Part shown: positions 1,085 to 16,346 of the stretch, piece by piece
Numbering within the stretch: the first letter of the stretch is position 1
How the letters are laid out: each line of letters starts with the position of its first letter
Assembly: GCA_049889355.1 (NCBI GenBank)
Contig: JBMHDN010000032.1
Span: 109,282-133,281, forward strand
DNA: 24,000 nucleotides
Source of the DNA: Candidatus Puniceispirillaceae bacterium
Lineage (GTDB): Bacteria > Pseudomonadota > Alphaproteobacteria > Puniceispirillales > Puniceispirillaceae
Direction: 5' to 3'
Notes under the pieces: generated by a model
Told to the model about the DNA's origin: nothing
The model's database searches: none
Seen by the model: only the letters and a program-made list of their open reading frames with translations
Position numbers and translations under genes: made by a program

Positions 1085-1161
1085 CAACTCATCCTGTCTA
1101 TAGTCCAACATATCGGTATATCAGCCTGCCCCCAAAGCGGGGTATGCTAGGGGCTGTTATC

Positions 1162-1293
1162 TTAAAAGCTGGTCAGCGCATACCAGATGACAAATAAAAT
1201 CCAGCCCATCAGATTCAATTCAAAGACCAGCAGATAAAAAATGATGGTGCCAACACACAAAAAGACTAAATTTTTGATGAAGGCTTTATCCAA
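1162..1293 (-). CDS. possible 43-aa small hydrophobic (two-helix) peptide, TTG start
   Basis: My own translation of the minus strand gives (TTG)DKAFIKNLVFLCVGTIIFYLLVFELNLMGWILFVIWYALTSF*. The frame is open from 1341, has no in-frame ATG and has a weak RBS. It is below the ORF-track size cut-off and may be a remnant or non-coding. Confidence 0.2.
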   Translation of the reverse strand: MDKAFIKNLVFLCVGTIIFYLLVFELNLMGWILFVIWYALTSF

Positions 1294-1333
1294 GGCATCT
1301 ATTCCACTGTCTTTGAATATGGTTGAATAAGGA

Positions 1334-2029
1334 TTAAGATTTTATCTTCTCCTTTATCCACTCCGAACTTCTTGGAAAATAGCTAAATCTACTCAGATGA
1401 GGAACACTAAATAAAAAAACTTTCTCTAATTTTAATTTATCTGCCTCTATTGCACCAACGTTTAAGGTACATATTTTTCGTTGAGGATTGGGTTTCAATT
1501 CAATTTCGCAATACTCATTCACAATCATCTTATTCTTAAAAAAATCATTTGCTCTTTTTCCGTTACAGATAACAAATCTAGGTTTTACTAATGACAATAT
1601 GAATTTATGGACTTGCCAACAAAGTTCTTCATCTACTTTGCGTAAATTGTTATCGTAACTATCTTCATCTACCGTTCTTACAAAACTAATATTTGAGGAA
1701 CATACTGTCTTTAGGTCAGGTGGAAGATCGGCAAATAATTGCTTTATTCTTTTCTGATGGGTATGGAGACCAGGTGGTTGGGGTTTTCCCCTTGCAAACC
1801 AAATACCCTCTGAAAACTCGTTAAAATTCTCATTTTTACGAAGTAAATGGTTTTCTATCGTATCTTCTTCTGGATTTTCAAATTGGTTACTTGAACCTCC
1901 AGGATTTGAACCCAGAAAATACCAATCACCTTTTTTTAAGGTATGGTTTGCTGAATACAAAAGTGACCCAGGGCGGTTGTTCAATCCTGTATCAATTAAT
2001 AATTTTTTAATTGATTCAATCTCTTCCAT
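1334..2029 (-). CDS. orphan 231-aa protein of the low-GC islet; candidate divergent uracil-DNA-glycosylase-superfamily (MUG/SMUG-like) fold
   Basis: This is an intact ATG-initiated ORF in DNA of about 30-35% GC. Its motif order is WYFLGSNPGG (compare GINPGL in MUG, GMNPGP in SMUG1), then VCSSNISFVRT (compare GVTKLVDRPT in MUG), then PRFVICNGKRANDFF (compare PQALAILGKQAYEQGF), then LFSVPHLSRFS (compare WVLPNPSGLS / HPSPRN). The comparison sequences are recalled from memory and no search was run. Confidence that it is coding is about 0.7; the figure given here is for the fold assignment. Confidence 0.45.
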   Translation of the reverse strand: MEEIESIKKLLIDTGLNNRPGSLLYSANHTLKKGDWYFLGSNPGGSSNQFENPEEDTIENHLLRKNENFNEFSEGIWFARGKPQPPGLHTHQKRIKQLFADLPPDLKTVCSSNISFVRTVDEDSYDNNLRKVDEELCWQVHKFILSLVKPRFVICNGKRANDFFKNKMIVNEYCEIELKPNPQRKICTLNVGAIEADKLKLEKVFLFSVPHLSRFSYFPRSSEWIKEKIKS

Positions 2030-2082
2030 ATATAAATTCTAGCATTCTATTCTTTCTTTTCCCATTCAATTTTCAATTTCCT

Positions 2083-2283
2083 CTACACAAGATCATATTC
2101 CACATGGAGGGATTCTAATCTCTCCTTTTTTTGACGATGTTTCTTGAGGACGGAATAAACAGAGTTTCCAGTTTCACCCCACCATTTTCCAATTTGAGTA
2201 GTGATACCTCTCTCAGTGAGGAGTTTAGTCATTTTGCCATAAGACATACCACCGTCCTGCAAAGACTTAATGTGATCATACAA
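2083..2283 (-). pseudogene. remnant of a serine-recombinase 'Recombinase'/HTH domain (integrase fragment), no ATG start
   Basis: The translation KELYDHIKSLQDGGMSYGKMTKLLTERGITTQIGKWWGETGNSVYSVLKKH follows the pattern A..V..IF.l...G.S...IA..LN..GI.T..GK.W....V..IL of large serine recombinases. No N-terminal resolvase catalytic domain is present. The ORF-track start is TTG. My translation shows the frame stays open upstream (…NRTNSFAKRNSDRYFARQ…) through the glmS stop without any ATG. This indicates a truncated gene. Confidence 0.5.
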
Positions 2284-2401
2284 TTCTTTTTGTCTTGCAA
2301 AATATCTATCACTATTGCGCTTAGCAAAGCTATTAGTCCGGTTTGAAACTTGAAAACAGAGATAATGAGAGTGTCTTGGTTCGCCAAATCCGTATTGGGA
2401 A

Positions 2402-4222
2402 TTACTCGACTGTAACCGATTTGGCGAGGTTGCGGGGCTGGTCTACGTCCGTGCCTTTTTCAACCGCGGTCAGATAGGCCAGAATCTGGGCAGGTATCGC
2501 CAGAATAATTGGTGCAACCAGCGGATCACATTCATCGAGTACCACCATATCACTGGCAAAATCCACCTGTGCAGCCGCTTCTTTTGTTGCGATCAGGATC
2601 ACCTCACCGCCGCGTGCTTCGGCTTCGCGCAAATTACTGGCCGACTTGGCAGACACCTCATCATTGCTAAGCATGGCAACAACCGGCAGCCCCTCTTCTA
2701 TCAATGCAATCGGCCCATGTTTCATCTCACCAGAAGCAAAGCCTTCTGCGTGGATATAAGAGAGCTCTTTGAGCTTTAGCGCACCTTCCATGGCCAGCGG
2801 GAACAGCATATCTCGGCCTAAAAACAGGCAGGAGCGTGCAGTGGTCAGCCGCTGGGCAACCGGCCGGATCGCATCAAACAAACCCGTTGCACGCCCGACC
2901 GCGCCAGGTACCCGCATCAGCAAATCATGGATCCGCGCTTCTTCAGCCGCCTCTAGCGTGCCATGTGCCCGGCCAAGAGCAACTGCAAGGCTGAGCAAGG
3001 CCGTGAGCTGGGCGGTAAACGCCTTGGTTGAGGCAACCCCAATTTCAGGACCGGCTCTGGTCGGGATGACCGCATCTGCCTCTCTGGCAATCGTCGATTG
3101 ATCAACATTGACCATGCCATAGGTTTTAAGCCCCATCTCTGCGCCATGGCGCATCGCCATTAGCGTATCAAGTGACTCGCCTGATTGTGAGATGACCAGC
3201 ACTGCACCGCCATTTACGGCAACAGGATGGCGATATCGATATTCAGAGGCGACCTCGACAACACACGGGATACCTGCAAGACGTTCAATCCAATAGCGGC
3301 CAATCTGGCCAGCATAATTGCTGGTCCCAGCCGCCAGAATGGTCAGATGCTTAATCTCACTTAATTGTTCATGACTGAGCGCGGCAGAGAGCCGACCTTC
3401 CCCATCTGTCATCGCAGACAGCGTATGGGCAATAGCATCAGGCTGTTCATGGATTTCCTTTTCCATGAAATGACGATAGCCAGCCTTATCAACCAAAATA
3501 GGGCTGGCAGTGGTGATGATCACTTCCCGATTTGCAGGCGCGCCTGACAGGTCAAATATCTCGGCCTCGCCTTTGCGGATGACCGCGTAATCCCCATCTT
3601 TTAAATAGATGATACGGCGGGTGAGATGGGCCATTGCAGCCGCATCTGAGGCAATGAAGCTTTCGCCGTCACCAAGGCCAATCGCCAGCGGTGAGGCATT
3701 GCGTGCCACCATCATAGAATCTGGATAATCTGTGCTAATGGCGGCCAGCGCATAGGCCCCTTCAATTTGGTCCAAAACCGAGGCAATGGCTTTTTCAGGG
3801 GTTAATCCAGATGACAGCGCGATATCAAATAAATGGGCCAGCACTTCAGAATCAGTATCGCTGGCAAATGAAATCCCCTTTGTGCTTAATTCAGCACGGA
3901 GCTCTGCGTAATTTTCAATAATCCCATTATGGACAATGGCGATTTTATCGCCGGCCATATGGGGGTGGGCGTTTGCCTCTGTCACGCCGCCATGGGTGGC
4001 CCAGCGTGTATGGCCGATTGCCAGATGACCGCTGAGCGGAGAGCCATTTAATTTTGCATCCAGTTCGGCGAGCTTGCCAACCGCGCGGCTGACCGCAAGG
4101 CCAGTCTCAGAAATGGCCGCGATCCCCGAGGAATCATAGCCACGATATTCCAACCTTTTGAGCGCATCTAACAAGATAGGGGCAGCATTTTGATCGCCAA
4201 TCTGTCCAACTATACCGCACAT
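2402..4222 (-). CDS. glmS: glutamine--fructose-6-phosphate aminotransferase (isomerizing)
   Basis: The 606-aa protein has the N-terminal MCGIVG (Ntn Cys nucleophile), a GATase-2 domain, two SIS domains and the canonical C-terminus ...LAKSVTVE. A GAGG SD lies upstream of the ATG at 4222. Confidence 0.97.
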   Translation of the reverse strand: MCGIVGQIGDQNAAPILLDALKRLEYRGYDSSGIAAISETGLAVSRAVGKLAELDAKLNGSPLSGHLAIGHTRWATHGGVTEANAHPHMAGDKIAIVHNGIIENYAELRAELSTKGISFASDTDSEVLAHLFDIALSSGLTPEKAIASVLDQIEGAYALAAISTDYPDSMMVARNASPLAIGLGDGESFIASDAAAMAHLTRRIIYLKDGDYAVIRKGEAEIFDLSGAPANREVIITTASPILVDKAGYRHFMEKEIHEQPDAIAHTLSAMTDGEGRLSAALSHEQLSEIKHLTILAAGTSNYAGQIGRYWIERLAGIPCVVEVASEYRYRHPVAVNGGAVLVISQSGESLDTLMAMRHGAEMGLKTYGMVNVDQSTIAREADAVIPTRAGPEIGVASTKAFTAQLTALLSLAVALGRAHGTLEAAEEARIHDLLMRVPGAVGRATGLFDAIRPVAQRLTTARSCLFLGRDMLFPLAMEGALKLKELSYIHAEGFASGEMKHGPIALIEEGLPVVAMLSNDEVSAKSASNLREAEARGGEVILIATKEAAAQVDFASDMVVLDECDPLVAPIILAIPAQILAYLTAVEKGTDVDQPRNLAKSVTVE

Positions 4223-4407
4223 ATCGAACCTCGTTTAACCTAGCCGTTAGCATGATGAGCAACAAGGTGGGATAACACACCACCTTCTTTTCATGGGCTT
4301 ACCATAAAAAACACCCTAAATCAGGCAGAAATTTGCTACAACCAAGATATCTGGATATATCTGTAGTTGCTGAACATTTGGGCAATAAAAAAGACAGTAG
4401 GGACGTT

Positions 4408-5739
4408 ATGGCATTCACCGCTATTATTTTGGCTGCAGGCAAAGGCAGCCGGCTCAAATCAAACCTTCCAAAGCCCCTACACCGCGTCGGTGGTCACCCG
4501 ATGCTGGGCTGGGTCATAGATAGCGCAACCTCAGCAGGCGCAACGCAAATCATCCCTGTAATTTCAAAGGACAGCCCTGCCCTCGAAGCCTATTTGAGCG
4601 ATTTTGAAGTCGCCATTCAGGACCCGCCACTTGGCACAGGTCATGCGGTATTGGCCGCCTCAGCCCATATCAAAGATAAATCAAAGCCGCTCATCATCTT
4701 ATTTGGCGACACCCCGCTTATCAGCGCAGCTAGTATCTCAGCCCTCGCCAAGACCATTGAAGAAGGTCTTGATATCTGTGTGGTAGGCTTTGAGACAGAG
4801 ACCCCGAAAGGCTATGGCCGGCTGGTCTTTGATGGTTCAGGCCAGCTCACCCGTATTGTTGAAGAATCTGAGGCCAGTTCCGCTGAAAAGGAAATCACAA
4901 CAGTGAATGGCGGGATGATGGCAGGGCGTGCAGATGTGATGCTCAGCTTGCTTGAAACCCTCTCGCCAGACAATTCACAAGGCGAGATTTTCCTGACCGA
5001 TATTGTCGCCTCAGGTCATGCAGCAGGTCACAAGATTAACGCTATCTTCATCGACCAATCTGAAATATCTGGCGTCAATAGCCGTGCTGACCTGGCGCAT
5101 ATTGAAACGTTGCTACAACATAAATTACGCGCCGCCGCAATGGCACAAGGGGCCACGCTGATTGCCCCTGAAACGGTGTTTTTATCAAGCGATACCGTCT
5201 TAGAGCGTGATGTGGTTATCGAACCGCATGTGGTGTTCGGAGCTGGCGTCCATATTGGTGAAGGCAGCATCATCAAAGCTTTTTCACATCTTGAAGGGGT
5301 GCAGACAAAAGCCTGCTGTGTTATCGGGCCTTATGCGAGACTGCGGCCGGGCACTGAACTGGATGAAGGCGTGAAAATCGGCAATTTCGTTGAAACCAAA
5401 AAAGCCCGCATTGCGGCCGGGGCGAAAGTCAACCACCTCTCTTATATCGGCGATGCAGAGGTCGGAGAGCAAGCCAATATCGGGGCGGGCACCATCACGT
5501 GTAATTATGATGGGTTTAACAAACATCAGACTCTTATCGGTGCTGGTGCGTTTATTGGCTCAAATACCGCGCTGGTAGCACCTGTATCGGTGGGAGCTGG
5601 TGCGATTATTGGTGCAGGCTCAACCATCACCAAAAATGTACCAGATGACGGTCTAGGCCTAACAAGAGCACCGCAAGCCAATTCAGAAAATATGGCCGAT
5701 AAGCTGCGTCAGCGCTTTCAAAAAGCCAAGAAAAAATAA
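4408..5739 (+). CDS. glmU: bifunctional UDP-N-acetylglucosamine pyrophosphorylase / glucosamine-1-phosphate N-acetyltransferase
   Basis: The N-terminus reads AIILAAGKGSRLKS..LPK (nucleotidyltransferase signature). The C-terminal half consists of hexapeptide left-handed beta-helix repeats (IGEGSII, IGPYARL, IGNFVE, IGAGTIT, IGAGAFIG, VGAGAIIGAGS). The true start is probably the ATG at 4408 (AGGGA SD about 6 nt upstream); the ORF-track start at 4333 is an upstream TTG. Confidence 0.95.
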   Translation: MAFTAIILAAGKGSRLKSNLPKPLHRVGGHPMLGWVIDSATSAGATQIIPVISKDSPALEAYLSDFEVAIQDPPLGTGHAVLAASAHIKDKSKPLIILFGDTPLISAASISALAKTIEEGLDICVVGFETETPKGYGRLVFDGSGQLTRIVEESEASSAEKEITTVNGGMMAGRADVMLSLLETLSPDNSQGEIFLTDIVASGHAAGHKINAIFIDQSEISGVNSRADLAHIETLLQHKLRAAAMAQGATLIAPETVFLSSDTVLERDVVIEPHVVFGAGVHIGEGSIIKAFSHLEGVQTKACCVIGPYARLRPGTELDEGVKIGNFVETKKARIAAGAKVNHLSYIGDAEVGEQANIGAGTITCNYDGFNKHQTLIGAGAFIGSNTALVAPVSVGAGAIIGAGSTITKNVPDDGLGLTRAPQANSENMADKLRQRFQKAKKK

Positions 5740-5766
5740 TGTAATAAGCCTGAGGAATGCTGATCC

Positions 5767-7296
5767 ATGGCCGGAAACATCGACAAAAAACATCATGCGC
5801 ATCTCGCAACCTCTCTGGTGGCAGAAATGCTGGATAATTTGCATGACAAAAAGCTGTTGGTTATCGGTGATGTGATGCTGGACCAATTTGTAGATGGTGT
5901 GGTGAATCGCATGTCGCCAGAAGCGCCAGTTCCGGTCTTATCGCGCTCACATACACAAAAAATGCCAGGTGGTGCAGCCAATGTCGCAGGCAACCTGGCG
6001 CATCTGGGTTTAGAGGTGATATTGATAGGTCTGGTCGGCAATGATGCCGCGGGTCAGGATTTACAGGCTGAACTGGCAAAACTACCACGGCTGTTATTTA
6101 TGCCTGTTCAAGATGAGAGCCGGCCAACCACTCAAAAAATCCGCTTTCGTTCTGGTGGCCAGCAAATGCTGAGAGTAGATGATGAATCTACACAAGATGC
6201 AAATCTTGATATTGAAGCGCAAATCATCGCCCGAACGCGCGCACTTATAGATGATGTGGACGCCATCATTTTATCTGACTATGCCAAAGGATGTTTGACT
6301 CAAACAACCATCCAAAATGTTATCAAAGCTGCGGGTGAAGCAGGCAAGGCGGTGATACTTGACCCGAAATCGCCTGATTTCGGACTTTATAAGGGAGCGG
6401 ATATCTTAACCCCTAATCTGTCTGAATTATGCAAAGCCGCAGGTCGCAACCTGACAAACCACCAAGATATTGCAACTGCGGCCATTCATTTATGCCAGAT
6501 GCATGATATTGGGCATATGTTGGTGACCTTAAGCGGTGATGGGATGATGCTTGTCTCAGCTTCTGATGAGGCGGGCGACACTGCACTTCATCTGCCGGCC
6601 AAGGCTGTTGAGGTGTTTGATGTGTCAGGTGCGGGTGATACGGTTGTGGCCGCTCTATCAGCGGGCCTTGTAGCATCTCTGCCTGTTGCAAAGGCGATGA
6701 GCCTGGCCAATCTGGCAGCTGGCATTGTGGTGGGCAAATCCGGTACCGCTATTGTGAGCCCTGGTGAGTTGCTTGCAGAAAATATCCTGCAATCTGCAGG
6801 AGGCAAAAAAGAGGTGGAAGACGATACCTCTACCCCGCTATCTGGTCCAGATAATTGGGAACAATTGGTACAACAAACCCGCCTATGGCAAAATCAGGGC
6901 CTGCATGTTGGTATCACAAATGGCTGTTTTGATTTGCTTCATCCCGGACATTTGCATGTGATCCGACAAGCCGCCACCTACTGCGACAAGCTGATTGTAG
7001 CCATTAATACAGATCGATCTGTCAAAATCTTAAAAGGGCCATCACGCCCCCAACAAAATCAGACAGAACGCATGGCTGTTCTCCAACATCTGCCGGCGGT
7101 ATCTGCTGTGGTGGTTTTTGATGAAGAAACACCGGCTGCATTATTTGAAGCGCTCAGACCAAATGTGCTGATAAAGGGCGGCGATTATAAAGCAGAAGAA
7201 CTGGTCGGCTATGACCAGATTATCGGTGATGGCGGGGCGGTGCATATCATTGATACCCTGCCCGGTCATTCAACCACCAATTTGCTGGAATCTTAA
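5767..7296 (+). CDS. hldE: bifunctional D-beta-D-heptose 7-phosphate kinase / D-beta-D-heptose 1-phosphate adenylyltransferase
   Basis: The N-terminal domain is a PfkB/ribokinase-like kinase (LVIGDVMLDQF..., DVSGAGDTVVA). The C-terminal domain is a cytidylyltransferase-like domain with the TNGCFDLLHPGH (HxGH) motif. It lies 27 nt after glmU, so the two are probably co-transcribed. Confidence 0.93.
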   Translation: MAGNIDKKHHAHLATSLVAEMLDNLHDKKLLVIGDVMLDQFVDGVVNRMSPEAPVPVLSRSHTQKMPGGAANVAGNLAHLGLEVILIGLVGNDAAGQDLQAELAKLPRLLFMPVQDESRPTTQKIRFRSGGQQMLRVDDESTQDANLDIEAQIIARTRALIDDVDAIILSDYAKGCLTQTTIQNVIKAAGEAGKAVILDPKSPDFGLYKGADILTPNLSELCKAAGRNLTNHQDIATAAIHLCQMHDIGHMLVTLSGDGMMLVSASDEAGDTALHLPAKAVEVFDVSGAGDTVVAALSAGLVASLPVAKAMSLANLAAGIVVGKSGTAIVSPGELLAENILQSAGGKKEVEDDTSTPLSGPDNWEQLVQQTRLWQNQGLHVGITNGCFDLLHPGHLHVIRQAATYCDKLIVAINTDRSVKILKGPSRPQQNQTERMAVLQHLPAVSAVVVFDEETPAALFEALRPNVLIKGGDYKAEELVGYDQIIGDGGAVHIIDTLPGHSTTNLLES

Positions 7297-7314
7297 AAAG
7301 ACTTTTGAGATGAC

Positions 7315-7348
7315 CAAAAAAAGGGCTGGAAAATACCCAGCCCTTTTT
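7315..7348. terminator. bidirectional rho-independent terminator between convergent hldE and sbmA/bacA
   Basis: AAAAAAA-GGGCTGG-aaaatac-CCAGCCC-TTTTTT: a perfect 7-bp GC-rich stem flanked by an A-run and a T-run. Confidence 0.85.
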
Positions 7349-7370
7349 TCTCAATATATTCAGCGCTTTA

Positions 7371-8624
7371 TCAAGAATCCAGCACCTGGCCTTTTTCCAT
7401 ATATTCCTGATCAATATCCAGAATATCCTTGTCCTGAATAGCCCGTTCAAATGATTGCAGACGCTTGAAAATCGAGATCAGCTCAATAATCGTGGTCCAG
7501 CTATTCACCAGATATTGGAAGGAATTAGACACTTGCGAGAAGGCGGTGATGATTTGCTGCATCACCCCATAGGTAAAGGCCGCCGCCGCAATCGCCGGGA
7601 TCAGAATAATATAGACAAAGATATTATCTGTTTGCAGATACAAGCCGCGGAAGACATTGAAATACATGTAATGGAAATAGAGACGGAAATAATTACGTCT
7701 CACATTGCCAAAAAGCTCCATCACTGTTGGTGGCTCAGCACGTGTTTCATCATCTTCGCCATAAACAAGCTCTTTGCGATAGGCCGCTTCAACACGCTGA
7801 TTGCGAAATTCAAGGCCTGGCAATTTGATACCCACAGCTGCCAAGAGACCTGTCCCGAAAATTGACCAAAACAGCGCAGCGGTAAGCAGTGGATAAGGAA
7901 TTGCGCCCACAATTGGCAATGTATCCACATAGCTGGACAGCGAAATCAGCAAAGGCAGGAAGGCAAATAAAGTCATGATCGCATCAACGATGGAAACGCC
8001 CAGCCCTTCCATAATACCGGCAAAACGCATGGTATCTTCCTGCACACGCTGGGCTGCCCCCTCAATATGGCGCAACCGGCCCCAGCGCGACATATAAAAA
8101 TCATTCATCGCATTACGCCAGCGGAAGATGTAATGGCTGACAAAAAAGCGCGTGGCGACATAAATCACCATCCAGACCAGCGCGATTTGCGCGAAAATCA
8201 GAATAAGGCTGTAAAACTCACCTGGGGTCACAGAATTTTCAGGGTTGAGCGCATTTTGAAGCAGGTCAAAAAATGGCCGCCGCCAATGGTTGATCGCAAC
8301 CGACACCTGCACCGAGAAATAAGTGGAAAACAGGATCAGCTGAGAGCCAACAATCGACCAGATCTGCCAGGGGTGTGGACAATAGCGGAACCAAAAGCCG
8401 GTAAATAGCGCACTAATGATGAAATAATAAATATAAAACCAGATAAAGTCAGGCGTGAAGAAAAATCCCATCCCAACAACAGGTTCAGCCCCTTCTGGTC
8501 TGGCCAGCCCAAAGCTCGCTCCTAAATCTGCGCCAAACAGATACCAAAAGGCCACCACAATCGCAGCCCAGACAATGGCACTGGTAAAAAACAGCTTTGG
8601 TCTTGGAAAAAATGACTCAAGCAT
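7371..8624 (-). CDS. bacA: SbmA/BacA-type peptide (antimicrobial peptide / microcin) uptake transporter, TMD-only ABC-like protein
   Basis: The 417-aa protein is near-colinear with E. coli SbmA as I recall it. Shared stretches include [88 protein letters not shown] and [14 protein letters not shown]. An AGGAGAGG SD precedes the ATG at 8624. Confidence 0.93.
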
Positions 8625-8655
8625 CTGTTAACCCCTCTCCTGATGACAACCGTCT

Positions 8656-9768
8656 TTATTGTAATTCTGCATCTTCTACTTGTCGGTGCAAAGCGATATT
8701 TACCACCACACCGAGCGCAGCAAATACACTCAACATGGCGGTGCCACCATATGAAATCAATGGCAAAGGCGCACCAACCACTGGCAATAAGCCCGTCACC
8801 ATAGCGATATTCACAAAGACATAAGAGAAAATCATCATCGCAATCCCCACACAAACAAGCCGGCTGAACCGGTTTTCAGAGGAAAGCCCAATACGGAATA
8901 TACCGCCCAATATCGCCAGATATACCCCAAGCACAACCAGATTTCCGACTAGACCAAATTCCTCGCCTATCATGGTAAAGACAAAATCGGTTTGTTTTTC
9001 GGGTAGATAGTTTAATTGAGATTGAGAGCCCATCAAAAAGCCTTTTCCGAAAAGCCCGCCTGAACCAAGCGCAATTTTAGATTGGGTGATTTGATAGCCT
9101 GCCCCCAGCATATCTGCCTCTGGGTTCAAAAACGTCATCACGCGCGCTTTTTGATAGTCATAAAGCTGAGACCAGATAACCGGGATTGAGGCCAGAACGC
9201 CAGCAAGGCTCAGGAAAATATAGCGTTTTGGCAGGCCTGCCGAAAAAATAACCGCTAAGCCGCCGAGCATTAGCATCAAGGCAGTGCCCAAATCAGGTTG
9301 TGTCACCACAAGACCAAAGGGAATAGCCAGCATCAAAATGGGAATGATATAGCTTGAAATCCGGCTGATATCATCAGGCTGGCGTGTTGAGAAATAGCGC
9401 GCCAAGGCAATAATAAGCGCCAATTTAGCAGGCTCAGATGGCTGAAAATTAAAGCCGCCAATCGCGATCCAACGCACTGCCCCTGTACCAACCCCTATCA
9501 CCGGCAATATGGCCAGAACGGCCACAGCACCCAGCAAGCCAGCATAGCTGAAATCATAAATCAGGCGTAAAGGCAGGGCCGCAATGACGATAATCATCAC
9601 CACCCCGAGGCAGGCCCTGATGATATGGCGTTCTGCCCAAGGAGACCAAGCCCCTTCTGAGGCAGAATAGAGAGCCAAAGAGCCGACCAAAACCAACATC
9701 GCGGTGAAAAGCAGCATCAGCCAAGGAACGGCTATCACGATTTTAAAAGGCGTATTGGGTCTGCTCAT
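8656..9768 (-). CDS. rodA: SEDS-family peptidoglycan glycosyltransferase RodA (elongasome)
   Basis: This is a polytopic membrane protein with typical SEDS stretches (QPSEPAKL, PDLGTAL, LPEKQTDFVFTMIGEEFG, PLPLISYGGTAML). I place the start at the ATG at 9768 (MSRPNTPFK, 370 aa), 4 nt after the mrdA stop. The ORF-track start at 9852 would overlap mrdA by 80 nt. Confidence 0.93.
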   Translation of the reverse strand: MSRPNTPFKIVIAVPWLMLLFTAMLVLVGSLALYSASEGAWSPWAERHIIRACLGVVMIIVIAALPLRLIYDFSYAGLLGAVAVLAILPVIGVGTGAVRWIAIGGFNFQPSEPAKLALIIALARYFSTRQPDDISRISSYIIPILMLAIPFGLVVTQPDLGTALMLMLGGLAVIFSAGLPKRYIFLSLAGVLASIPVIWSQLYDYQKARVMTFLNPEADMLGAGYQITQSKIALGSGGLFGKGFLMGSQSQLNYLPEKQTDFVFTMIGEEFGLVGNLVVLGVYLAILGGIFRIGLSSENRFSRLVCVGIAMMIFSYVFVNIAMVTGLLPVVGAPLPLISYGGTAMLSVFAALGVVVNIALHRQVEDAELQ

Positions 9769-9772
9769 CTCA

Positions 9773-11728
9773 TCACACCCCTTCGCGTCCCAGAAGATAG
9801 GCAAAGACATCACGCGCGACAGGCGCGGCCATGCTAGAGCCTGAGCCGCCATGCTCTACCACAACTGAAATCGCATAGCGCGGGTTTTTATACGGGGCAT
9901 AGGCAACAAACAAGGCGTGATCACGTTCTTTCCATGGCCTGTCAATATTATCAATAATGCCGGCATCACGTTGTGCTTGAGTAATCCGTTTGACCTGCAC
10001 CGTTCCGGTCTTTCCGGCAATCTGATAGTCTGGCAAATCATAACGCCGCGCCGTCCCAAATCCACCTTGCATCACCGCGCGCATCCCGCGGCGCATCTCG
10101 CGCAATATATCAGAAGAGACTGGTATGGGTTCAAATTTGCGACTGTCTAAATCATCTGATTGAATGATGGTCGGGCTGATTTGTTGGCCAGTGGCAATAC
10201 GCCCTGTCATCACCGCCAGCTGTATCGGCGTGGTCAGCACAAAACCCTGGCCGATGCCGGCAATCACGGTCTCACCCGGTGTCCAGCTGGTCCCATAGCG
10301 TGCTTTCTTCCAATCTCGATTAGGCATCACGCCAATTTTCTCACCCGGAATGCCAAGGCCAGATACCTCACCAAGCCCAAAACGTCGGGCCATTTCATGA
10401 ATCTTATTAATCCCTGTTTTCAGTGCAATCTGATAGAAATACACATCGCAGGATTGGGCCACGGCCTGTGTGCCATCCAGCGCGCCATGCCCCCCTTCTC
10501 GCCAGCAATAAAAATTGCGATCGCCAAATTCAAAAAAGCCGCTACAGCCAATTTTGGTACGCGGGCTGATAACCCCCGCTTCCATCGCCGCTGCCATGAC
10601 CACCATTTTAAAAGTGGAACCAGGTGAATAAAGGCCCGATAAGCTCCGGTTCAAGAGCGGGTTGCGTGGATGGGTGTTCACCCGGCTCCAATCGCGTTGT
10701 AACAACCTGTCGGTAAAAATATTTGGATCATAGGACGGCAAGGATACCATCGCCAATACAGCGCCAGTGCGGATGTCAATCACCGAAACAGATCCCGATT
10801 CAGGCGGAATAAGATTATCCTTCGCATCTTTGAAAATTTTATCATCACCTGCTGCAATATGCGCGCGCAAACTCTCATTGGACATTAATCCACGCTGGGC
10901 TTCAGATGAGGATAAATCCACCGGCCGCGCATTGCCTTGCTGCAAACGGTTAGTGATAAAATTCTGTAAATCGATATCGATGGTGAGATGCAAATCATCC
11001 CCCATCTCAGCTTGCCTATCGGTGAGCATGCGTACCGGCTTACCGCGTGCATTCACCTCAATGCGCTCCTGACCTTCACGCCCACGCAGTGAAGCCTCAA
11101 AACTGCGCTCCAAACCCGATTTACCTGTGCGCAAGCCAGGCAGACGGCGCAACCGCCGATTTTCTGAAACCTCACGTGCCGTGACAGGCGAGACATAACC
11201 GGTGATATGAGATAATAATGCGCCTTGCGGATAAATCCGCCTGAACCGTCGCTCAAAGACTGTACCGGGCAGCGCTGATGCGCGTACAGCAAGACGCGCA
11301 AGTTCTCGCTGGGTGAGATTTGAGCGAATAACCACTTCCAGAAAATCAGGCTGTCTTTCTACCTGTTCCAATATATCGCGGCGTTGCTGGGGGGTTAGCC
11401 TGACAATATGACCAACCTTATCGAGTAATTTATCAATATTATCAACATGGGCTGGCACCATCGTTACTTCAAAAACTTCTGAATTATCTGCCAGAATACG
11501 GCCACGGCGATCATAGATACGCCCGCGCGGTGCGACCATCAAACGCTCGTTAAACTGGTTATCATCCGATAATTTTTGATAGGCAGCAGACTGATTAATC
11601 TGGATTTGATAAAGCCGGCCGACCAGCACGGCACTCAGCAGTAATTGACCGCCAGCCACAAATAACATACGGCGCGAGATATTGGTTTTTTGTTCTTTAT
11701 TTTCTTTGCGTTCACGGCGCATCGCCAC
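9773..11728 (-). CDS. mrdA: penicillin-binding protein 2 (elongasome transpeptidase)
   Basis: The protein has an N-terminal membrane anchor, a PBP dimerisation domain, and a transpeptidase domain with STFK (SxxK), SCD (SxN-type) and KTGT (KTG) boxes in the right order. The start is the GTG at 11728 (GAGGA SD 6 nt upstream) or the ATG at 11722. Confidence 0.95.
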   Translation of the reverse strand: MAMRRERKENKEQKTNISRRMLFVAGGQLLLSAVLVGRLYQIQINQSAAYQKLSDDNQFNERLMVAPRGRIYDRRGRILADNSEVFEVTMVPAHVDNIDKLLDKVGHIVRLTPQQRRDILEQVERQPDFLEVVIRSNLTQRELARLAVRASALPGTVFERRFRRIYPQGALLSHITGYVSPVTAREVSENRRLRRLPGLRTGKSGLERSFEASLRGREGQERIEVNARGKPVRMLTDRQAEMGDDLHLTIDIDLQNFITNRLQQGNARPVDLSSSEAQRGLMSNESLRAHIAAGDDKIFKDAKDNLIPPESGSVSVIDIRTGAVLAMVSLPSYDPNIFTDRLLQRDWSRVNTHPRNPLLNRSLSGLYSPGSTFKMVVMAAAMEAGVISPRTKIGCSGFFEFGDRNFYCWREGGHGALDGTQAVAQSCDVYFYQIALKTGINKIHEMARRFGLGEVSGLGIPGEKIGVMPNRDWKKARYGTSWTPGETVIAGIGQGFVLTTPIQLAVMTGRIATGQQISPTIIQSDDLDSRKFEPIPVSSDILREMRRGMRAVMQGGFGTARRYDLPDYQIAGKTGTVQVKRITQAQRDAGIIDNIDRPWKERDHALFVAYAPYKNPRYAISVVVEHGGSGSSMAAPVARDVFAYLLGREGV

Positions 11729-11769
11729 ATCAATTCCTCAGGCTATAAGAATCCAAACCTAAATCATGT

Positions 11770-12435
11770 TCATCCATTATTCATCCGGCTGACAAGGCTA
11801 TTCAAAAAGAACATCACCACAAAAATAACAGGAAAGAAGATGATATTCAGGCCTGTTTGAAGCGCCATCTCACTCAAATCCGGAATGGTCAGATGAACCG
11901 CCAGAAAAACACCAAGCCGCCACAGCGCAATCACCAGACAGACCGAGGCGAAATGGGCCCAGAGCGACAGAAAATCCTCCCCTTCGCGGTCAAAGGGCCG
12001 ATAGGTCAGCCAAATCACCAATATCGGCAGGTAAATCACCCGCACACCCAACATATCAAGCCCTAATATTTCAGCAAAAAAGGCAATGATCCAAACAGAA
12101 CTTAAGGGCAGGACCAGAGGTTGATAGAGTGCCAGAAGATAGACATAAAACAAGCTCAGCATTGGTGTAGCTGACGAAAAAAACGACCAATTGGCCAGTT
12201 GCATTTCCACCAGAACCAGAAACAGCCCTATCATCAGCACCAAAAAGCGAGAGGATAGAAACCGAGCTGGATGGGTAGGCTGAATGGTTTCCTTCATGCG
12301 GCTGAGATAGCCACCATCTGTGTTATGCCGCCCGCCACTCTGGCGGCTCTGTCTTTGGCCTGCATGACCAAATCCGCGACCACCGCTTGTGCTCATATCT
12401 GTTTTCGTGCCCACCGCACGCCCACCACGCACCAT
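11770..12435 (-). CDS. mreD: rod shape-determining protein MreD, with an unusual Arg/Gly-rich N-terminal extension
   Basis: It sits between mreC and mrdA, and about 175 aa of the C-terminal part is multi-pass hydrophobic, as expected for MreD. The ATG at 12435 overlaps the mreC TGA (TGATG) and has GGAG 8 nt upstream. The alternative internal start at 12297 (MKETIQ) lacks an SD. Confidence 0.8.
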   Translation of the reverse strand: MVRGGRAVGTKTDMSTSGGRGFGHAGQRQSRQSGGRHNTDGGYLSRMKETIQPTHPARFLSSRFLVLMIGLFLVLVEMQLANWSFFSSATPMLSLFYVYLLALYQPLVLPLSSVWIIAFFAEILGLDMLGVRVIYLPILVIWLTYRPFDREGEDFLSLWAHFASVCLVIALWRLGVFLAVHLTIPDLSEMALQTGLNIIFFPVIFVVMFFLNSLVSRMNNG

Positions 12436-13391
12436 CAATTGCGCTCCGAGGGCTGTGTTTGCTGATCAATGACAGGCAACACATCACGTGTATTAAACCC
12501 TTCTAGCAAACGTTCATCTTCTGGATTGATCAAAGGGGTAAAAAATCCGTCTAAATCAGAGAGCTCAGCTGAGGTTGCTTCTTCATCACGCAGCAAAACC
12601 GAGACAAAGGAGAGCTGGCGCAAATCTACCGATGGGCGCACCAGCACCTGTTCACTGGATATCTGTTCGATACGACCGACCGGAATACCAGCTGGCAACA
12701 CACCGCCATGACCTGAGGTCTGCACAAGCTCGCCTTTGGTAGGGCGCGCTTCAAGCGGCAAAAATTGAAGCTTTAAGAGCAGGCTGTTCTGGCCATGAAT
12801 AAGGCCTGGCCAACTTGAGCGGCTGAGAATAACTGGGATACGCGCATTCACATCACTGAGCAGTAGCACACGTGAATAGCGGTTCCCCGGTTCAACAATC
12901 ATGCCCACAAGCCCATCTGCGGTTACCACCGGATCGCCGCGCCGAACTGCAAATCCCTCACCATGCTGAATCAGCACTGTTTGCACAAAACTGCTGCCAG
13001 GGGCTGTAATAACGCGGGCGGTGACCGCCACCCTGTCTTGCGGGATCACCGCGCCCAATACTGAACGTAACTGGCGGTTTTCTGATTCTAATATTTCGGC
13101 GCGTCTTTGCCACCGCCGTAGCCGCTCATTTTGAGCTTTAAGCCGCTGTGCCTCTTCGCGCAGGGACGCCACAGTGCGCATCCCTTCAAACATGTTTTCG
13201 ATTGACTGGATAGGGGCAGCTACCGCCTCCATCAGCGGTGCGATAACCTCTACCACACCTGACTTCACATGACGGGCAGCGGTAATGTCGGCTTTGCCTA
13301 CAAAAATCAGCAAAAAACCAATCAAAACAAGAAGGATTTGGGGCAGCCGGCTGGCACGTTCTTTTCGCCTGCCAACCAGTCGACCTTCCAT
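12435..13391 (-). CDS. mreC: rod shape-determining protein MreC
   Basis: The 318-aa protein has an N-terminal anchor (LPQILLVLIGFLLIF), a coiled-coil segment (LREEAQRLKAQNERLRRWQRRAEILESENRQLR) and C-terminal beta-rich domains. It lies between mreB and mreD. Confidence 0.92.
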   Translation of the reverse strand: MEGRLVGRRKERASRLPQILLVLIGFLLIFVGKADITAARHVKSGVVEVIAPLMEAVAAPIQSIENMFEGMRTVASLREEAQRLKAQNERLRRWQRRAEILESENRQLRSVLGAVIPQDRVAVTARVITAPGSSFVQTVLIQHGEGFAVRRGDPVVTADGLVGMIVEPGNRYSRVLLLSDVNARIPVILSRSSWPGLIHGQNSLLLKLQFLPLEARPTKGELVQTSGHGGVLPAGIPVGRIEQISSEQVLVRPSVDLRQLSFVSVLLRDEEATSAELSDLDGFFTPLINPEDERLLEGFNTRDVLPVIDQQTQPSERN

Positions 13392-13397
13392 CTTTTC

Positions 13398-14501
<1,104 letters not shown>

Positions 14502-14522
14502 TCAAAAAAGAATAGTCTGTTC

Positions 14523-14565
14523 AAATAGAAAACTGGCCACTTTTCTTTACCAGAAAAGCAGCCAG
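14523..14565 (-). terminator. rho-independent terminator after ilvC
   Basis: The minus strand reads CTGGC-TG-CTTTTCT-ggtaa-AGAAAAG-TG-GCCAG-TTTTCTATTT, a 12 bp Watson-Crick stem plus two G.U pairs followed by a U-rich tail. It lies about 30 nt after the ilvC stop. Confidence 0.8.
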
Positions 14566-14594
14566 CCTGTCATTGCGTTTATCGCGTGATGAAT

Positions 14595-15632
<1,038 letters not shown>

Positions 15633-15738
15633 TTAGGATTACGAGACAGGTGGTAGCTTCCTTCTGCTATGCTGTCAATTTGGATTTAAGTTTTCAGGGC
15701 TGATAACGGCCAGATTGGCTGTCTGAACCGTGCTTTGG

Positions 15739-16260
15739 CTAGTCAGCCAGGTCTATTTGATTGCCGCGGGTAATACCACAGACACCGGTCCGCGCGATTT
15801 CGACCTGACCCAAGGCACGCATCAAATCAATAAAAGCGGTGACTTTAGATGAATTGCCGGTGATTTCGAAAATGAAGCTGTTGAGCGTGCTATCTAATGT
15901 TCTTGCTCTGAAGCTGTCAGCCAGGCGCAATGCTTCAACCCGGGCATCGCCGTCATTGAGCACTTTCACCAGGGCCATTTCACGTTCTACATGGGCAGGC
16001 CCAACGGTGAGGTCTTCAACCATATGGACCGGCACGATTTTAGCCAGCTGGGCTTTGATCTGTTCAATCACATTGGGTGTGCCGGTTGTAACCACCGAAA
16101 TGCGTGATGTATGCTGGGCCGCATCTACCTCAGATACGGTCAGGCTTTCGATATTATAGCCGCGCCCTGAAAACAGGCCGACCACACGGGCCAAAACGCC
16201 CGGCTCATTATCAACCAAAATAGACAGGGTATGCGCTTCAATAGCGGTATTGTCGAACAT
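15739..16260 (-). CDS. ilvN: acetolactate synthase (AHAS) small regulatory subunit
   Basis: The 173-aa protein has an N-terminal ACT domain (HTLSILVDNEPGVLARVVGLFSGRGYNIESLTV). It lies directly downstream of the AHAS large subunit gene. Confidence 0.95.
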   Translation of the reverse strand: MFDNTAIEAHTLSILVDNEPGVLARVVGLFSGRGYNIESLTVSEVDAAQHTSRISVVTTGTPNVIEQIKAQLAKIVPVHMVEDLTVGPAHVEREMALVKVLNDGDARVEALRLADSFRARTLDSTLNSFIFEITGNSSKVTAFIDLMRALGQVEIARTGVCGITRGNQIDLAD

Positions 16261-16346
16261 GATATCTCCTTAAGAAGAGCGTGATGGCCATTTTCACAGG
16301 TTATGGCCACCAAAACAGAGTAAACCAGATACTAAAAACCGAAAGG

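What the first reader, a model, noticed from the sequence alone, without database searches (positions are those of the whole stretch)
1130..2401. About 1.2-kb low-GC islet inserted about 25 bp downstream of the glmS stop (attTn7-type hot spot)
By-eye GC counts of 60-nt lines give 28-38% inside 1440-1560, against 53-63% in the cupin and glmS coding lines. The compositional break on the glmS side falls around 2375-2385, about 20-25 bp past the glmS stop at 2402-2404. That is the geometry used by Tn7-like elements and several other glmS-targeting integrative elements. The islet holds only a recombinase fragment and one intact orphan gene. I read this as a decayed integrated element whose cargo gene has been retained.
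Basis: partly seen in the sequence, partly recalled or inferred. Interest (0 to 1): 0.6.

Follow-up and report, generated by a model that had tools for sequence, protein, structure and literature searches.

The report
Recombinase-less gene cassette docked in glmS
The low-GC stretch behind glmS in this SAR116-type marine bacterium is a 1.1-kb mobile gene cassette. It was spliced into the last codons of glmS, and it belongs to a widespread, apparently undescribed family of serine-recombinase elements that stack such cassettes behind glmS; this copy has lost its recombinase and keeps only a DNA-glycosylase-like cargo gene.

Summary
Window 1299-2413 is 34.5% GC and is the lowest-GC 1.2-kb stretch of the 2.02-Mb assembly (mean 51.0 +/- 2.5%). 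The Tn7 reading does not hold.

The islet is bounded by two same-strand copies of the glmS terminus ACNGTNGARTRR (T-V-E-stop), at 2402-2413 and 1299-1310. The whole genome has only six such sites. Joining the two copies at their AC restores an intact glmS end.

The same motif recurs 3-7 times, on the glmS strand only, behind glmS in SAR116 relatives. It delimits cassettes with inverted-repeat arms. Fifty other alphaproteobacterial glmS loci have no extra copy.

In seven relatives a 550-601-aa large serine recombinase sits at the distal end of a cassette and reads into the site. Covariation places the crossover at the invariant AC.

The start-less "recombinase fragment" (2400-2086) is the standard first module of these cassettes. 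In the circular form of one element it is in frame with the recombinase. All seven recombinases carry an A8-A10 run just before the site.

The window copy is non-autonomous and decayed: it has no recombinase, and the module has lost its TTG start and gained a TAG. The cargo (2029-1334) is intact and has a UDG-superfamily fold.

Earlier reports of this scan described the same kind of glmS array in SAR86 and other marine bacteria. I found no publication of it.

The parts
2402..4222 (-). glmS (606 aa). Its last codons form the attachment site, and its final 10 nt (2411-2402, N GTC GAG TAA) are supplied by the cassette.
   Evidence: ORF. It is 62-68% identical to the glmS of SAR116 genomes. All 78 alphaproteobacterial glmS ends examined match ACNGTNGARTRR.
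2402..2413 (-). Proximal core (attL): ACAGTCGAGTAA, encoding T-V-E-stop of glmS. The inferred crossover is at AC (2413-2412).
   Evidence: Covariation maps the switch between left-linked and right-linked positions to the AC.
2377..2401 (-). Start arm (P' arm). CAATACGGATT (2397-2387) is the inverted repeat of the end arm. A 13-nt inverted repeat (2381-2393 / 2415-2427, 12 of 13) also spans the glmS stop.
   Evidence: (I10, I11). Four metagenomic copies and G027 share this arm; three cassettes with both ends held (G027, L155, L159) have an inverted partner arm, and L155 carries the perfect pair GAATACGGATTT/AAATCCGTATTC about 14 nt on either side of AC.
2047..2400 (-). Pseudogene of the cassette's first module. 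This is a small protein with a Recombinase-type helix-turn-helix, called the HTH module here. The frame is open from 2400 to 2086, an in-frame TAG lies at 2085-2083, and the family's C-terminal tail is still readable to 2050. The TTG start seen in relatives is TCG here.
   Evidence: The family has 143 clusters of 54-173-aa proteins plus four repeat-containing proteins of 275-2979 aa. Intact members hit Pfam PF07508 positions 1-51 above the cut-off. 36 of 43 copies sit at a fixed offset from a core. The TTG start in relatives is shown.
1334..2029 (-). Intact cargo gene: a 231-aa protein with a UDG-superfamily fold.
   Evidence: AF2 model with pLDDT 88.9 and pTM 0.88. All top Foldseek PDB hits are family-4 UDG, TDG, UdgX or SMUG1, with E down to 7e-5. 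Invariant NPGG and PH motifs appear in 11 homologues. There is a weak PF03167 hit.
1311..1335 (-). End arm (P arm). On the minus strand AATCCTTATTC (1335-1325) lies 14 nt before the AC. It matches the relatives' arm AATCCGTATTC at 10 of 11 positions and is 9 of 11 complementary to the window's own start arm.
   Evidence: The G027 copy shares this arm (36 bp, 86% identity).
1299..1310 (-). Distal core (attR): ACAGTGGAATAG, a second T-V-E-stop. It is inferred to be the original glmS terminus, displaced by the insertion.
   Evidence: There are only 6 such sites on both strands of the 2.02-Mb genome, and two of them lie 1103 bp apart here on the same strand. Joining at AC gives ...DQPRNLAKSVTVE*.
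1162..1293 (-). 43-codon hydrophobic ORF just outside the cassette (36% GC). It may be native DNA or an older remnant; this is unresolved.
   Evidence: No homologue was found in the glmS neighbourhoods of relatives or elsewhere in the genome.

Best explanation
The islet is one non-autonomous, partly decayed cassette of a family of integrative elements moved by a large serine recombinase (LSR). Their attachment site is the 3' end of glmS.

A complete element has this layout, as seen in relatives: core, start arm, small helix-turn-helix (HTH) module, cargo, sometimes a small serine recombinase, the LSR, end arm, core. As a circle, its end arm, core and start arm form a dyad-symmetric attP centred on an invariant AC. 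The LSR would recombine this with the glmS terminus (AAR TCN GTN ACN GTN GAR stop) at that AC. The element then supplies new final codons and a new stop for glmS, and the old terminus is pushed to the far side. Repeated insertions build arrays.

The window cassette (1299-2413) keeps both cores, both arms, the HTH module (now a pseudogene) and one cargo gene of UDG fold. It has no LSR, and the genome holds none. It could therefore move only with an LSR supplied in trans, and it is probably fixed.

Shown here: the repeats, the arms, the arrays, the LSR position, and the same cassette in other contexts with other cargo. Inferred: the LSR as catalyst, the crossover at AC, and that the HTH module is the detachable C-terminal part of the LSR reading frame.
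For: (1) GC outlier: it is the lowest 1.2-kb stretch in the genome.

(2) Two same-strand TVE-stop cores flank the islet, against 6 in 4.05 Mb of both strands. Excision at AC restores glmS.

(3) Arrays: 3, 6, 6, 7 and 5 same-strand cores lie in the fetched stretches behind glmS in G030, G079, G064, G101 and G122, with one reverse-strand hit in all. In 28 SAR116-like loci there are 12 extra cores in 8 loci, none on the other strand and none upstream. In 50 other alphaproteobacterial loci there are none in 364 kb.

(4) Each cassette's start and end arms are inverted repeats of each other, and the arm types differ between cassettes.

(5) Core positions +2, +5, +10 and +11 co-vary with the right arm and -3 and -1 with the left arm, so the exchange point is at AC. 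The arms lie about 14 nt on either side of AC in the window's cassette type.

(6) LSRs of 550-601 aa (Resolvase + Recombinase, with a Zn ribbon in one) end at or within the core in G042, G044, G086, G105, G146, G170 and G184.

(7) The same cassette at 85% nt identity, in contig L072, starts 3 nt before the AC but follows an HNH cassette rather than glmS. Four more metagenomic copies and G027 carry the same arm and HTH module (74-81% nt identity). They hold other cargo where the contig reaches it. Two sit behind a glmS only 42-46% identical to this one.

(8) The cargo recurs at 43% identity in another low-GC islet directly behind glmS.

(9) The own genome has no Resolvase domain.
Against: No recombination was observed. 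An exact empty-site pattern was not found in metagenome contigs, so there is no direct evidence for excision or for an empty allele in this species, and no same-genus genome is held.

No LSR-bearing element with the window's own arm type was found.

Most genomes with arrays, including the complete G030, have no serine recombinase at all, so the catalyst is assigned by association in 7 loci.

The HTH module shows no significant similarity to the recombinase domain of the G105 LSR, and its fold search was inconclusive.

The window's end arm is degenerate and the two cores differ at 3 of 12 positions.
Confidence: 0.8

Rival explanations
1. The cassettes are integrated by host or trans-acting tyrosine recombinases (Xer-type, as for IMEX elements, or an integrase elsewhere in the genome). 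The serine recombinases would then be just one more cargo.
For: The only recombinases found in G000 are tyrosine recombinases: a 298-aa Xer-like one and a 392-aa integrase. G030, G079, G101, G064 and G122 have arrays but no Resolvase domain. One large element carries a 199-aa Phage_integrase-domain protein.
Against: None of the tyrosine recombinases lies near the arrays. The LSR has a fixed position and orientation: it is the last gene, ending at or reading through the core, in 7 of 7 loci. The site has long arms 14 nt on either side of an invariant dinucleotide. It does not look dif-like by eye against the E. coli dif sequence as I recall it (not tested).
Confidence: 0.08
2. A Tn7-like or other glmS-directed transposon remnant inserted downstream of glmS.
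For: The position is next to glmS. The composition is foreign.
Against: The boundary lies inside the glmS coding sequence, not 23-25 bp downstream. The flanks carry a 12-bp repeat of the glmS end, not a 5-bp duplication. There are no TnsA or TniQ domains in the genome (the controls were also silent). The family's mobility gene is an LSR.
Confidence: 0.02
3. No site-specific insertion took place. This is a variable low-GC intergenic region exchanged by homologous recombination between conserved flanks, or simply a native AT-rich spacer, and the second TVE-stop motif is a chance match.
For: The cores differ at 3 of 12 positions. No empty allele of this species was seen.
Against: The chance of a second same-strand core within 1.5 kb is about 0.0015, given 6 sites per 4.05 Mb. 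The same modular cassette with conserved arms occurs in hosts whose glmS is only 42-46% identical and behind unrelated cassettes. The motif recurs on one strand only, and only in SAR116 loci.
Confidence: 0.05

Closest known systems
SCC/SCCmec-type cassette chromosomes at the 3' end of rlmH (orfX) in staphylococci, moved by Ccr large serine recombinases (from my own knowledge; PMC6222049 is named in an earlier scan note, which I did not read)
   Same: LSR-mediated insertion into the last codons of a conserved housekeeping gene, keeping the gene intact. Direct repeats of the site flank the element. Composite or tandem islands form, and recombinase-less pseudo-elements are left behind.
   Different: The target is glmS, not rlmH. 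The units are mostly 1-3 kb single-gene cassettes. There is one LSR (sometimes with a small serine recombinase) rather than CcrAB or CcrC. A conserved small HTH module abuts the site, and the LSR reading frame runs into or through attP.
SSV1-type integrases of archaeal viruses, whose attP lies inside the int gene so that integration partitions the gene (own knowledge)
   Same: Integration separates the recombinase reading frame into two pieces at the two ends of the element. Here this is shown in silico for G042, where the 580-aa LSR becomes a 698-aa ORF across the circular junction.
   Different: Those are tyrosine recombinases of archaea that integrate in tRNA genes. Here the enzyme is a bacterial LSR, only a C-terminal HTH extension is detached, and in 5 of 7 elements an A8-A10 run and a frame change intervene.
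Additive flexible genomic islands and tycheposons of marine bacteria (PMC10872708; bioRxiv 10.1101/2020.12.28.424599)
   Same: Successive site-specific insertions at one conserved site in streamlined ocean bacteria. [quoted passage not shown] Degenerate recombinase-less remnants occur.
   Different: Those sit at tRNA genes, and 910 of 937 Prochlorococcus elements use tyrosine recombinases. Here the target is a protein-coding gene end and the recombinase is an LSR with an attP-spanning frame.
Tn7 and Tn7-like elements at attTn7
   Same: They use the highly conserved glmS 3' end as a safe, universal landing site.
   Different: Tn7 recognises the glmS end through TnsD but inserts about 25 bp downstream by transposition with a 5-bp duplication. 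Here recombination occurs inside the last codons, with no Tns genes.
Chromosomal integrons and CALINs; cis-mobilisable elements (CIMEs) formed by tandem accretion
   Same: Arrays of mostly single-gene, promoter-poor cassettes on one strand behind a fixed site. Many units lack their own recombinase.
   Different: There is no IntI and no attC hairpin sites. The sites are dyad-symmetric duplex sites with arm types that differ between cassettes, and the associated enzyme is a serine recombinase.

Membership tests
LSR-mobilised integrative cassette (SCC-like) | Element flanked by direct repeats of the attachment core | tested here: met
   ACAGTCGAGTAA at 2402-2413 and ACAGTGGAATAG at 1299-1310, on the same strand. 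Only 6 such sites exist in the genome.
LSR-mobilised integrative cassette (SCC-like) | Element encodes a large serine recombinase (Resolvase + Recombinase + Zn-ribbon domains) | tested here: not met
   None in the islet or anywhere in the 92%-complete genome. It is met in complete elements of 7 relatives. The window copy is therefore filed as a non-autonomous derivative.
LSR-mobilised integrative cassette (SCC-like) | Dyad-symmetric attP arms around a central dinucleotide shared with attB | tested here: met
   Arms CAATACGGATT and AATCCTTATTC lie about 14 nt on either side of AC. The pair is perfect in metagenomic contig L155. Covariation puts the exchange at AC.
LSR-mobilised integrative cassette (SCC-like) | Insertion preserves the target gene | tested here: met
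   glmS is intact (606 aa) with a cassette-borne terminus. The empty-site join also gives ...KSVTVE*.
LSR-mobilised integrative cassette (SCC-like) | Excision or circular form, or empty-site alleles in the population | not testable with these tools
The exact empty-site pattern was not found in metagenome contigs.
Tn7-like transposon at attTn7 | Insertion about 23-25 bp downstream of the glmS stop with a 5-bp target duplication | tested here: not met
   The junction is inside the last four codons. The repeat is the 12-bp glmS end.
Tn7-like transposon at attTn7 | TnsA/TnsB/TnsC plus TnsD/TniQ genes or remnants | tested here: inconclusive
   PF06527 and PF08722 were not found in the genome, but the control genomes were silent too. 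The islet ORFs have no such Pfam hits.
Integron cassette array | IntI tyrosine integrase next to attI, and attC sites | tested here: not met
   The only Phage_integrase hits in G000 are on other contigs. The sites are copies of the glmS end with duplex inverted-repeat arms.
Uracil-DNA glycosylase superfamily (cargo protein) | UDG alpha/beta fold | tested here: met
   pLDDT 88.9. The top 50 PDB matches are all UDG-superfamily enzymes (best E 6.8e-5; TM normalised to target length up to 0.59).
Uracil-DNA glycosylase superfamily (cargo protein) | Active-site motifs (motif A G-x-x-P-G type; motif B H-P-S type) and glycosylase activity | tested here: inconclusive
   Invariant L-G-S-N-P-G-G and S-V-P-H-L motifs occur at the expected order in 11 homologues. 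The Pfam UDG hit is below the cut-off. Activity and substrate are untested.
Small Recombinase-HTH module family | Match to the first half of Pfam Recombinase (PF07508) and a fixed position abutting the core | tested here: met
   The window copy aligns over 105 residues with the family (E to 1e-23). Intact members score above the Pfam cut-off. The offset from the core is fixed in 36 of 43 copies. The window copy itself is below the cut-off (E 0.08) and is a pseudogene.

The most novel reading that the evidence does not exclude
The small HTH module is the detachable C-terminal DNA-binding domain of the recombinase. A full-length LSR-HTH protein can be made only from the excised circle, where attP joins the two parts. 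In some elements the join is direct and in frame. In others it depends on slippage at a conserved A8-A10 run.

Integration into glmS would then cut the enzyme. The HTH piece is left to be translated from a TTG inside the core, coupled to glmS. This would give the element built-in directionality and copy control without a separate directionality factor.

Because the attB is the near-universal glmS terminus, such enzymes would be natural 'attTn7-like' landing-pad integrases.
Probability: 0.35. Interest if true: 0.85.

Novelty: new variant of a known kind. Interest (0 to 1): 0.62.

Why it matters
SAR116 is among the most abundant bacterial groups of the surface ocean (own knowledge), and how its small genomes acquire strain-specific genes is poorly understood.

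This finding shows that the glmS terminus, known as the Tn7 landing site, is used in this clade by a different machinery. That machinery is a large serine recombinase which stacks small, mostly single-gene cassettes behind glmS. The cargo includes nuclease-type, probably defence-related proteins and DNA-glycosylase-like proteins.

The same cassette type is found behind the glmS of distantly related hosts, so these cassettes are a route of gene flow across lineages.

The recombinase reading frame running through its own attachment site, with a conserved A-run, suggests an unusual self-limiting control. It could be tested directly.

Recombinases with a nearly universal bacterial attB would also be of practical interest as integration tools.

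Tried and rejected
- A structured RNA under the conserved 366-nt stretch shared with G027: no Rfam, tRNA or tmRNA hit. The conservation is protein-coding.
- A fragment of a normal large serine recombinase: rejected. 139 of the 143 family clusters are proteins of 54-173 aa.
- A resident serine recombinase: none in G000 or in five array-bearing relatives.
- Tn7 genes: not found, but the controls were silent.
- Anti-phage system models (PADLOC), NCBIfam and PHROGs for the cargo and the window's HTH copy: nothing significant.
- PDB sequence searches for both proteins: nothing.
- Fold search of the HTH model: no significant match. Bxb1 integrase ranks second, but at E 2.1.
- BLASTP of the HTH module against the G105 LSR: no similarity.
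The phage collection gave only weak hits to recombinase HTH regions.
- Exact empty-site pattern in metagenome contigs: no hit.
- Homologues of the 43-aa ORF, the cupin protein or DedA next to glmS in relatives: none, so local synteny gives no empty-site comparison.
- Literature searches for serine recombinases or cassette arrays at glmS found no description.
Full report
**Observation.** The window holds, on the minus strand, glmS (4222-2402), then an open but start-less 105-codon frame (2400-2086), then a 231-codon ORF (2029-1334). After these come a 43-codon hydrophobic ORF (1293-1162) and a cupin gene (1111-719).

GC falls to 28-39% between about 1200 and 2400, against 52-61% in glmS. Over the whole 2.02-Mb assembly, 1.2-kb windows average 51.0% GC (sd 2.5). 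The islet, at 34.7%, is the lowest of 19,584 windows.

**What bounds the islet.** The last twelve bases of glmS, ACAGTCGAGTAA (T-V-E-stop, 2413-2402), recur 1103 bp downstream on the same strand as ACAGTGGAATAG (1310-1299), again reading T-V-E-stop. The degenerate motif ACNGTNGARTRR occurs only six times on both strands of the whole genome. A second same-strand copy within 1.5 kb is therefore expected about 0.0015 times. Removing the DNA between the two AC dinucleotides leaves an intact glmS ending ...DQPRNLAKSVTVE*.

**The same build in relatives.** By the titles of the nearest glmS loci, the genome belongs to the SAR116 / Puniceispirillales group. No genome of the same genus is held.

In other genera and families of the order, the region behind glmS is often low in GC. 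It begins with a homologue of the start-less frame at a fixed distance from the stop. In G030, G079, G064, G101 and G122 the TVE-stop motif recurs 3, 6, 6, 7 and 5 times in the fetched stretches behind glmS, always on the glmS strand, with a single reverse-strand hit in all.

As a control I fetched 80 glmS loci; 78 of them hold the glmS 3' end. The 28 SAR116-like loci carry 12 extra same-strand motifs in 8 loci (125 kb downstream), none on the other strand and none upstream. The 50 loci of other Alphaproteobacteria carry none in 364 kb downstream. Seven of the 28 SAR116 contigs break within 400 bp after glmS, as expected for a hypervariable site.

**Anatomy of a unit.** Each unit between two cores starts with an arm directly after the stop codon. 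It ends with the inverted repeat of that arm, some 10-22 nt before the next core. Several arm types exist, and they pair within a unit, not across a junction. In the circular form, end arm, core and start arm would thus form a dyad-symmetric site.

Among 65 non-glmS junctions, the variable core positions +2, +5, +10 and +11 follow the right-hand arm and -3 and -1 the left-hand arm. The exchange point therefore lies at the invariant AC of the Thr codon.

In the window's own cassette type the arms lie about 14 nt on either side of that AC. The pair is GAATACGGATTT / AAATCCGTATTC in contig L155 and CAATACGGATT / AATCCTTATTC in the window. It follows that the last 10 nt of the present glmS come from the cassette. 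The motif at 1299-1310 is then the displaced original terminus. This is an inference.

**The enzyme.** The window's genome has no Resolvase domain, and neither do five array-bearing relatives, including the complete G030. An order-wide search nevertheless found large serine recombinases of 550-601 aa inside glmS arrays in G042, G044, G086, G105, G146, G170 and G184.

The four checked in Pfam (G042, G044, G105, G184) carry Resolvase and Recombinase domains, and the G105 one also a zinc ribbon. Each is the last gene of its unit and reads toward the end arm. It stops 18-52 nt before the AC, or within or after the core.

Complete elements run from the glmS core through the small HTH gene and cargo to the LSR and the next core. 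G044 and G086 add a small serine recombinase. In G105 the cargo includes HNH-HIT, T5orf172 and a short tyrosine recombinase. These elements measure 5.9 kb in G044, 8.4 kb in G086, 9.6 kb in G042 and 13 kb in G105. Most units, including the window's, lack the LSR.

**The "recombinase fragment".** Its translation matches 143 clusters. Almost all are proteins of 54-173 aa, and none is a normal-length recombinase. Intact members hit only positions 1-51 of Pfam Recombinase, above the cut-off. In the order, 74 of 192 genomes carry it, often several copies per array. 36 of 43 copies with an N-terminus lie at a constant offset from a core: 14 behind glmS itself and 22 behind another cassette.

I joined the G042 element at AC. 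The 580-aa LSR then continues in frame through the site into the HTH module, giving a 698-aa ORF that ends at the family's normal C-terminus. The G184 LSR also reads through the core.

The other five LSRs stop shortly before the core. However, all seven have an A8-A10 run 47-82 nt before the AC. In those five a second frame is open from the run through the AC. For the three of them whose start is held (G044, G105, G086), that frame continues into the HTH module across the circular junction. By eye, two of these sites read as the classical A AAA AAG / A AAA AAA -1 heptamer. I infer that a fused LSR-HTH protein can be made only from the circle, directly or after slippage. This is not shown.

In copies of the window's type, the integrated HTH ORF starts at a TTG inside the core (GTTGAATAA). 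That arrangement would couple it to glmS translation.

**State of the window copy.** The core reads GTCGAGTAA, so the TTG start is lost. An in-frame TAG (2085-2083) cuts off the last 11 codons, which are still readable. Sister copies carry different lesions, while L155, L156 and L159 are intact.

**Mobility of this cassette type.** Metagenome contig L072 carries the same HTH-plus-cargo cassette at 85% nt identity. The similarity begins 3 nt before the AC, and upstream lies the end of an HNH-endonuclease cassette, not glmS.

G027 holds the same arm and HTH module at 74% with a 143-aa secreted cargo. Four more marine contigs hold it at 77-81%; where the contig reaches the cargo it differs (197 aa in L155, 115 aa in L159). 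Two of these sit directly behind a glmS only 42-46% identical to this one, and two behind another cassette. Similarity to the window always ends at the end of the HTH module (about 2053).

The cargo gene itself occurs at 83% identity in a cassette with other arms and no HTH module (L073). It also occurs at 43% identity in a 1.2-kb low-GC islet directly behind the glmS of a 55-60% GC organism. Further copies lie next to tyrosine integrases, one of them also next to a Schlafen/AlbA_2-domain gene, in SAR116 single-cell genomes.

**The cargo.** Only eleven homologues are known and none is annotated. With their alignment, AlphaFold gives a confident model (pLDDT 88.9). Its best 50 PDB matches are all UDG-superfamily enzymes: family 4, TDG, UdgX and SMUG1. 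Invariant LGSNPGG and SVPHL motifs sit where UDG motifs A and B would be. Substrate and role are untested. A repair function, or a defence function directed at modified bases, is plausible.

**Comparison with what is known.** It works most like SCC elements at rlmH: LSR-mediated insertion into the end of a housekeeping gene, composite arrays and recombinase-less units. The partition of the recombinase frame recalls SSV1-type integration. The ecology recalls additive islands and tycheposons, which sit at tRNA genes and mostly use tyrosine recombinases. It is not Tn7-like: the junction is inside glmS, the flanks carry a 12-bp site repeat, and no Tns genes were found (with silent controls).

Searches of the paper library found no description of serine recombinases or cassette arrays at glmS. 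Earlier reports of this scan found the same kind of array on other DNA (SAR86, e1-2361264; another marine genome, e1-1427248). My results agree with them and extend them to SAR116.

**Limits.** No recombination event was observed. No LSR element with the window's arm type was found. The HTH fold search was inconclusive. The stretch 1130-1298 remains unexplained.

**Verdict.** Interest is 0.62.

Noticed in passing
L065-L071 (G146, G042, G044, G105, G170, G184, G086), 47-82 nt before the distal core: All seven large serine recombinase genes carry an A8-A10 homopolymer near their 3' end. In five of them a second frame opens at the run and reads through the attachment core, which suggests programmed slippage or phase variation.
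   Followed up: partly
window 2381-2393 / 2415-2427: A 13-nt inverted repeat (12 of 13) spans the glmS stop. The cassette's start arm mirrors the glmS codons for L-A-K-S-V. It could be part of the hybrid attL site or a hairpin behind glmS.
   Followed up: no
window 1123-1293: A 43-codon ORF with two hydrophobic runs (36% GC) and a GC-rich hairpin lie between the cassette and the cupin gene. No homologue was found in relatives' glmS neighbourhoods. It may be an older cassette remnant without a recognisable core.
   Followed up: partly
SAR116 glmS loci L076, L083, L086, L095, L099, L101, L113; G007 C34/C4; G002; G022: Many assemblies break within a few hundred bases after (or inside) the glmS 3' end, as expected if repeated cores and strain-variable cassettes defeat assembly.
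   Followed up: no
G000 C19:25001-26801 and other low-GC stretches (C16:124501-130101, C32:172201-174101, C56, C50, C3): Seven further low-GC islets (37-39% GC) exist in the genome. The one on C19 coincides with a 392-aa tyrosine integrase.
   Followed up: no
L068 (G105:C7) 2000-16850: A 13-kb complete element behind glmS carries an HNH-HIT fusion, a T5orf172/MUG113 protein, a 199-aa Phage_integrase-domain protein and, in the next cassette, a GIY-YIG protein. This looks like a nuclease-rich, probably defence-related cargo set.
   Followed up: partly
proteins P0067 (948 aa), P0082 (2979 aa), P0151 (275 aa): A few long proteins contain 3-8 tandem copies of a segment similar to the small HTH module. 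P0151 scores strongly as four Recombinase-domain repeats.
   Followed up: no
L074 and L016 (SAR116 single-cell genomes): Homologues of the UDG-like cargo (44-45% identity) lie in islands with a tyrosine integrase (adjacent in L016), and in L074 directly beside a Schlafen/AlbA_2-domain gene. This hints at a defence-island association for the family.
   Followed up: no
L050 (G122:C10), L066 17524-17904, L068 16470-16847: In one subfamily the HTH gene sits at the end arm and reads inward on the opposite strand. The module can therefore occupy either arm of a cassette.
   Followed up: partly
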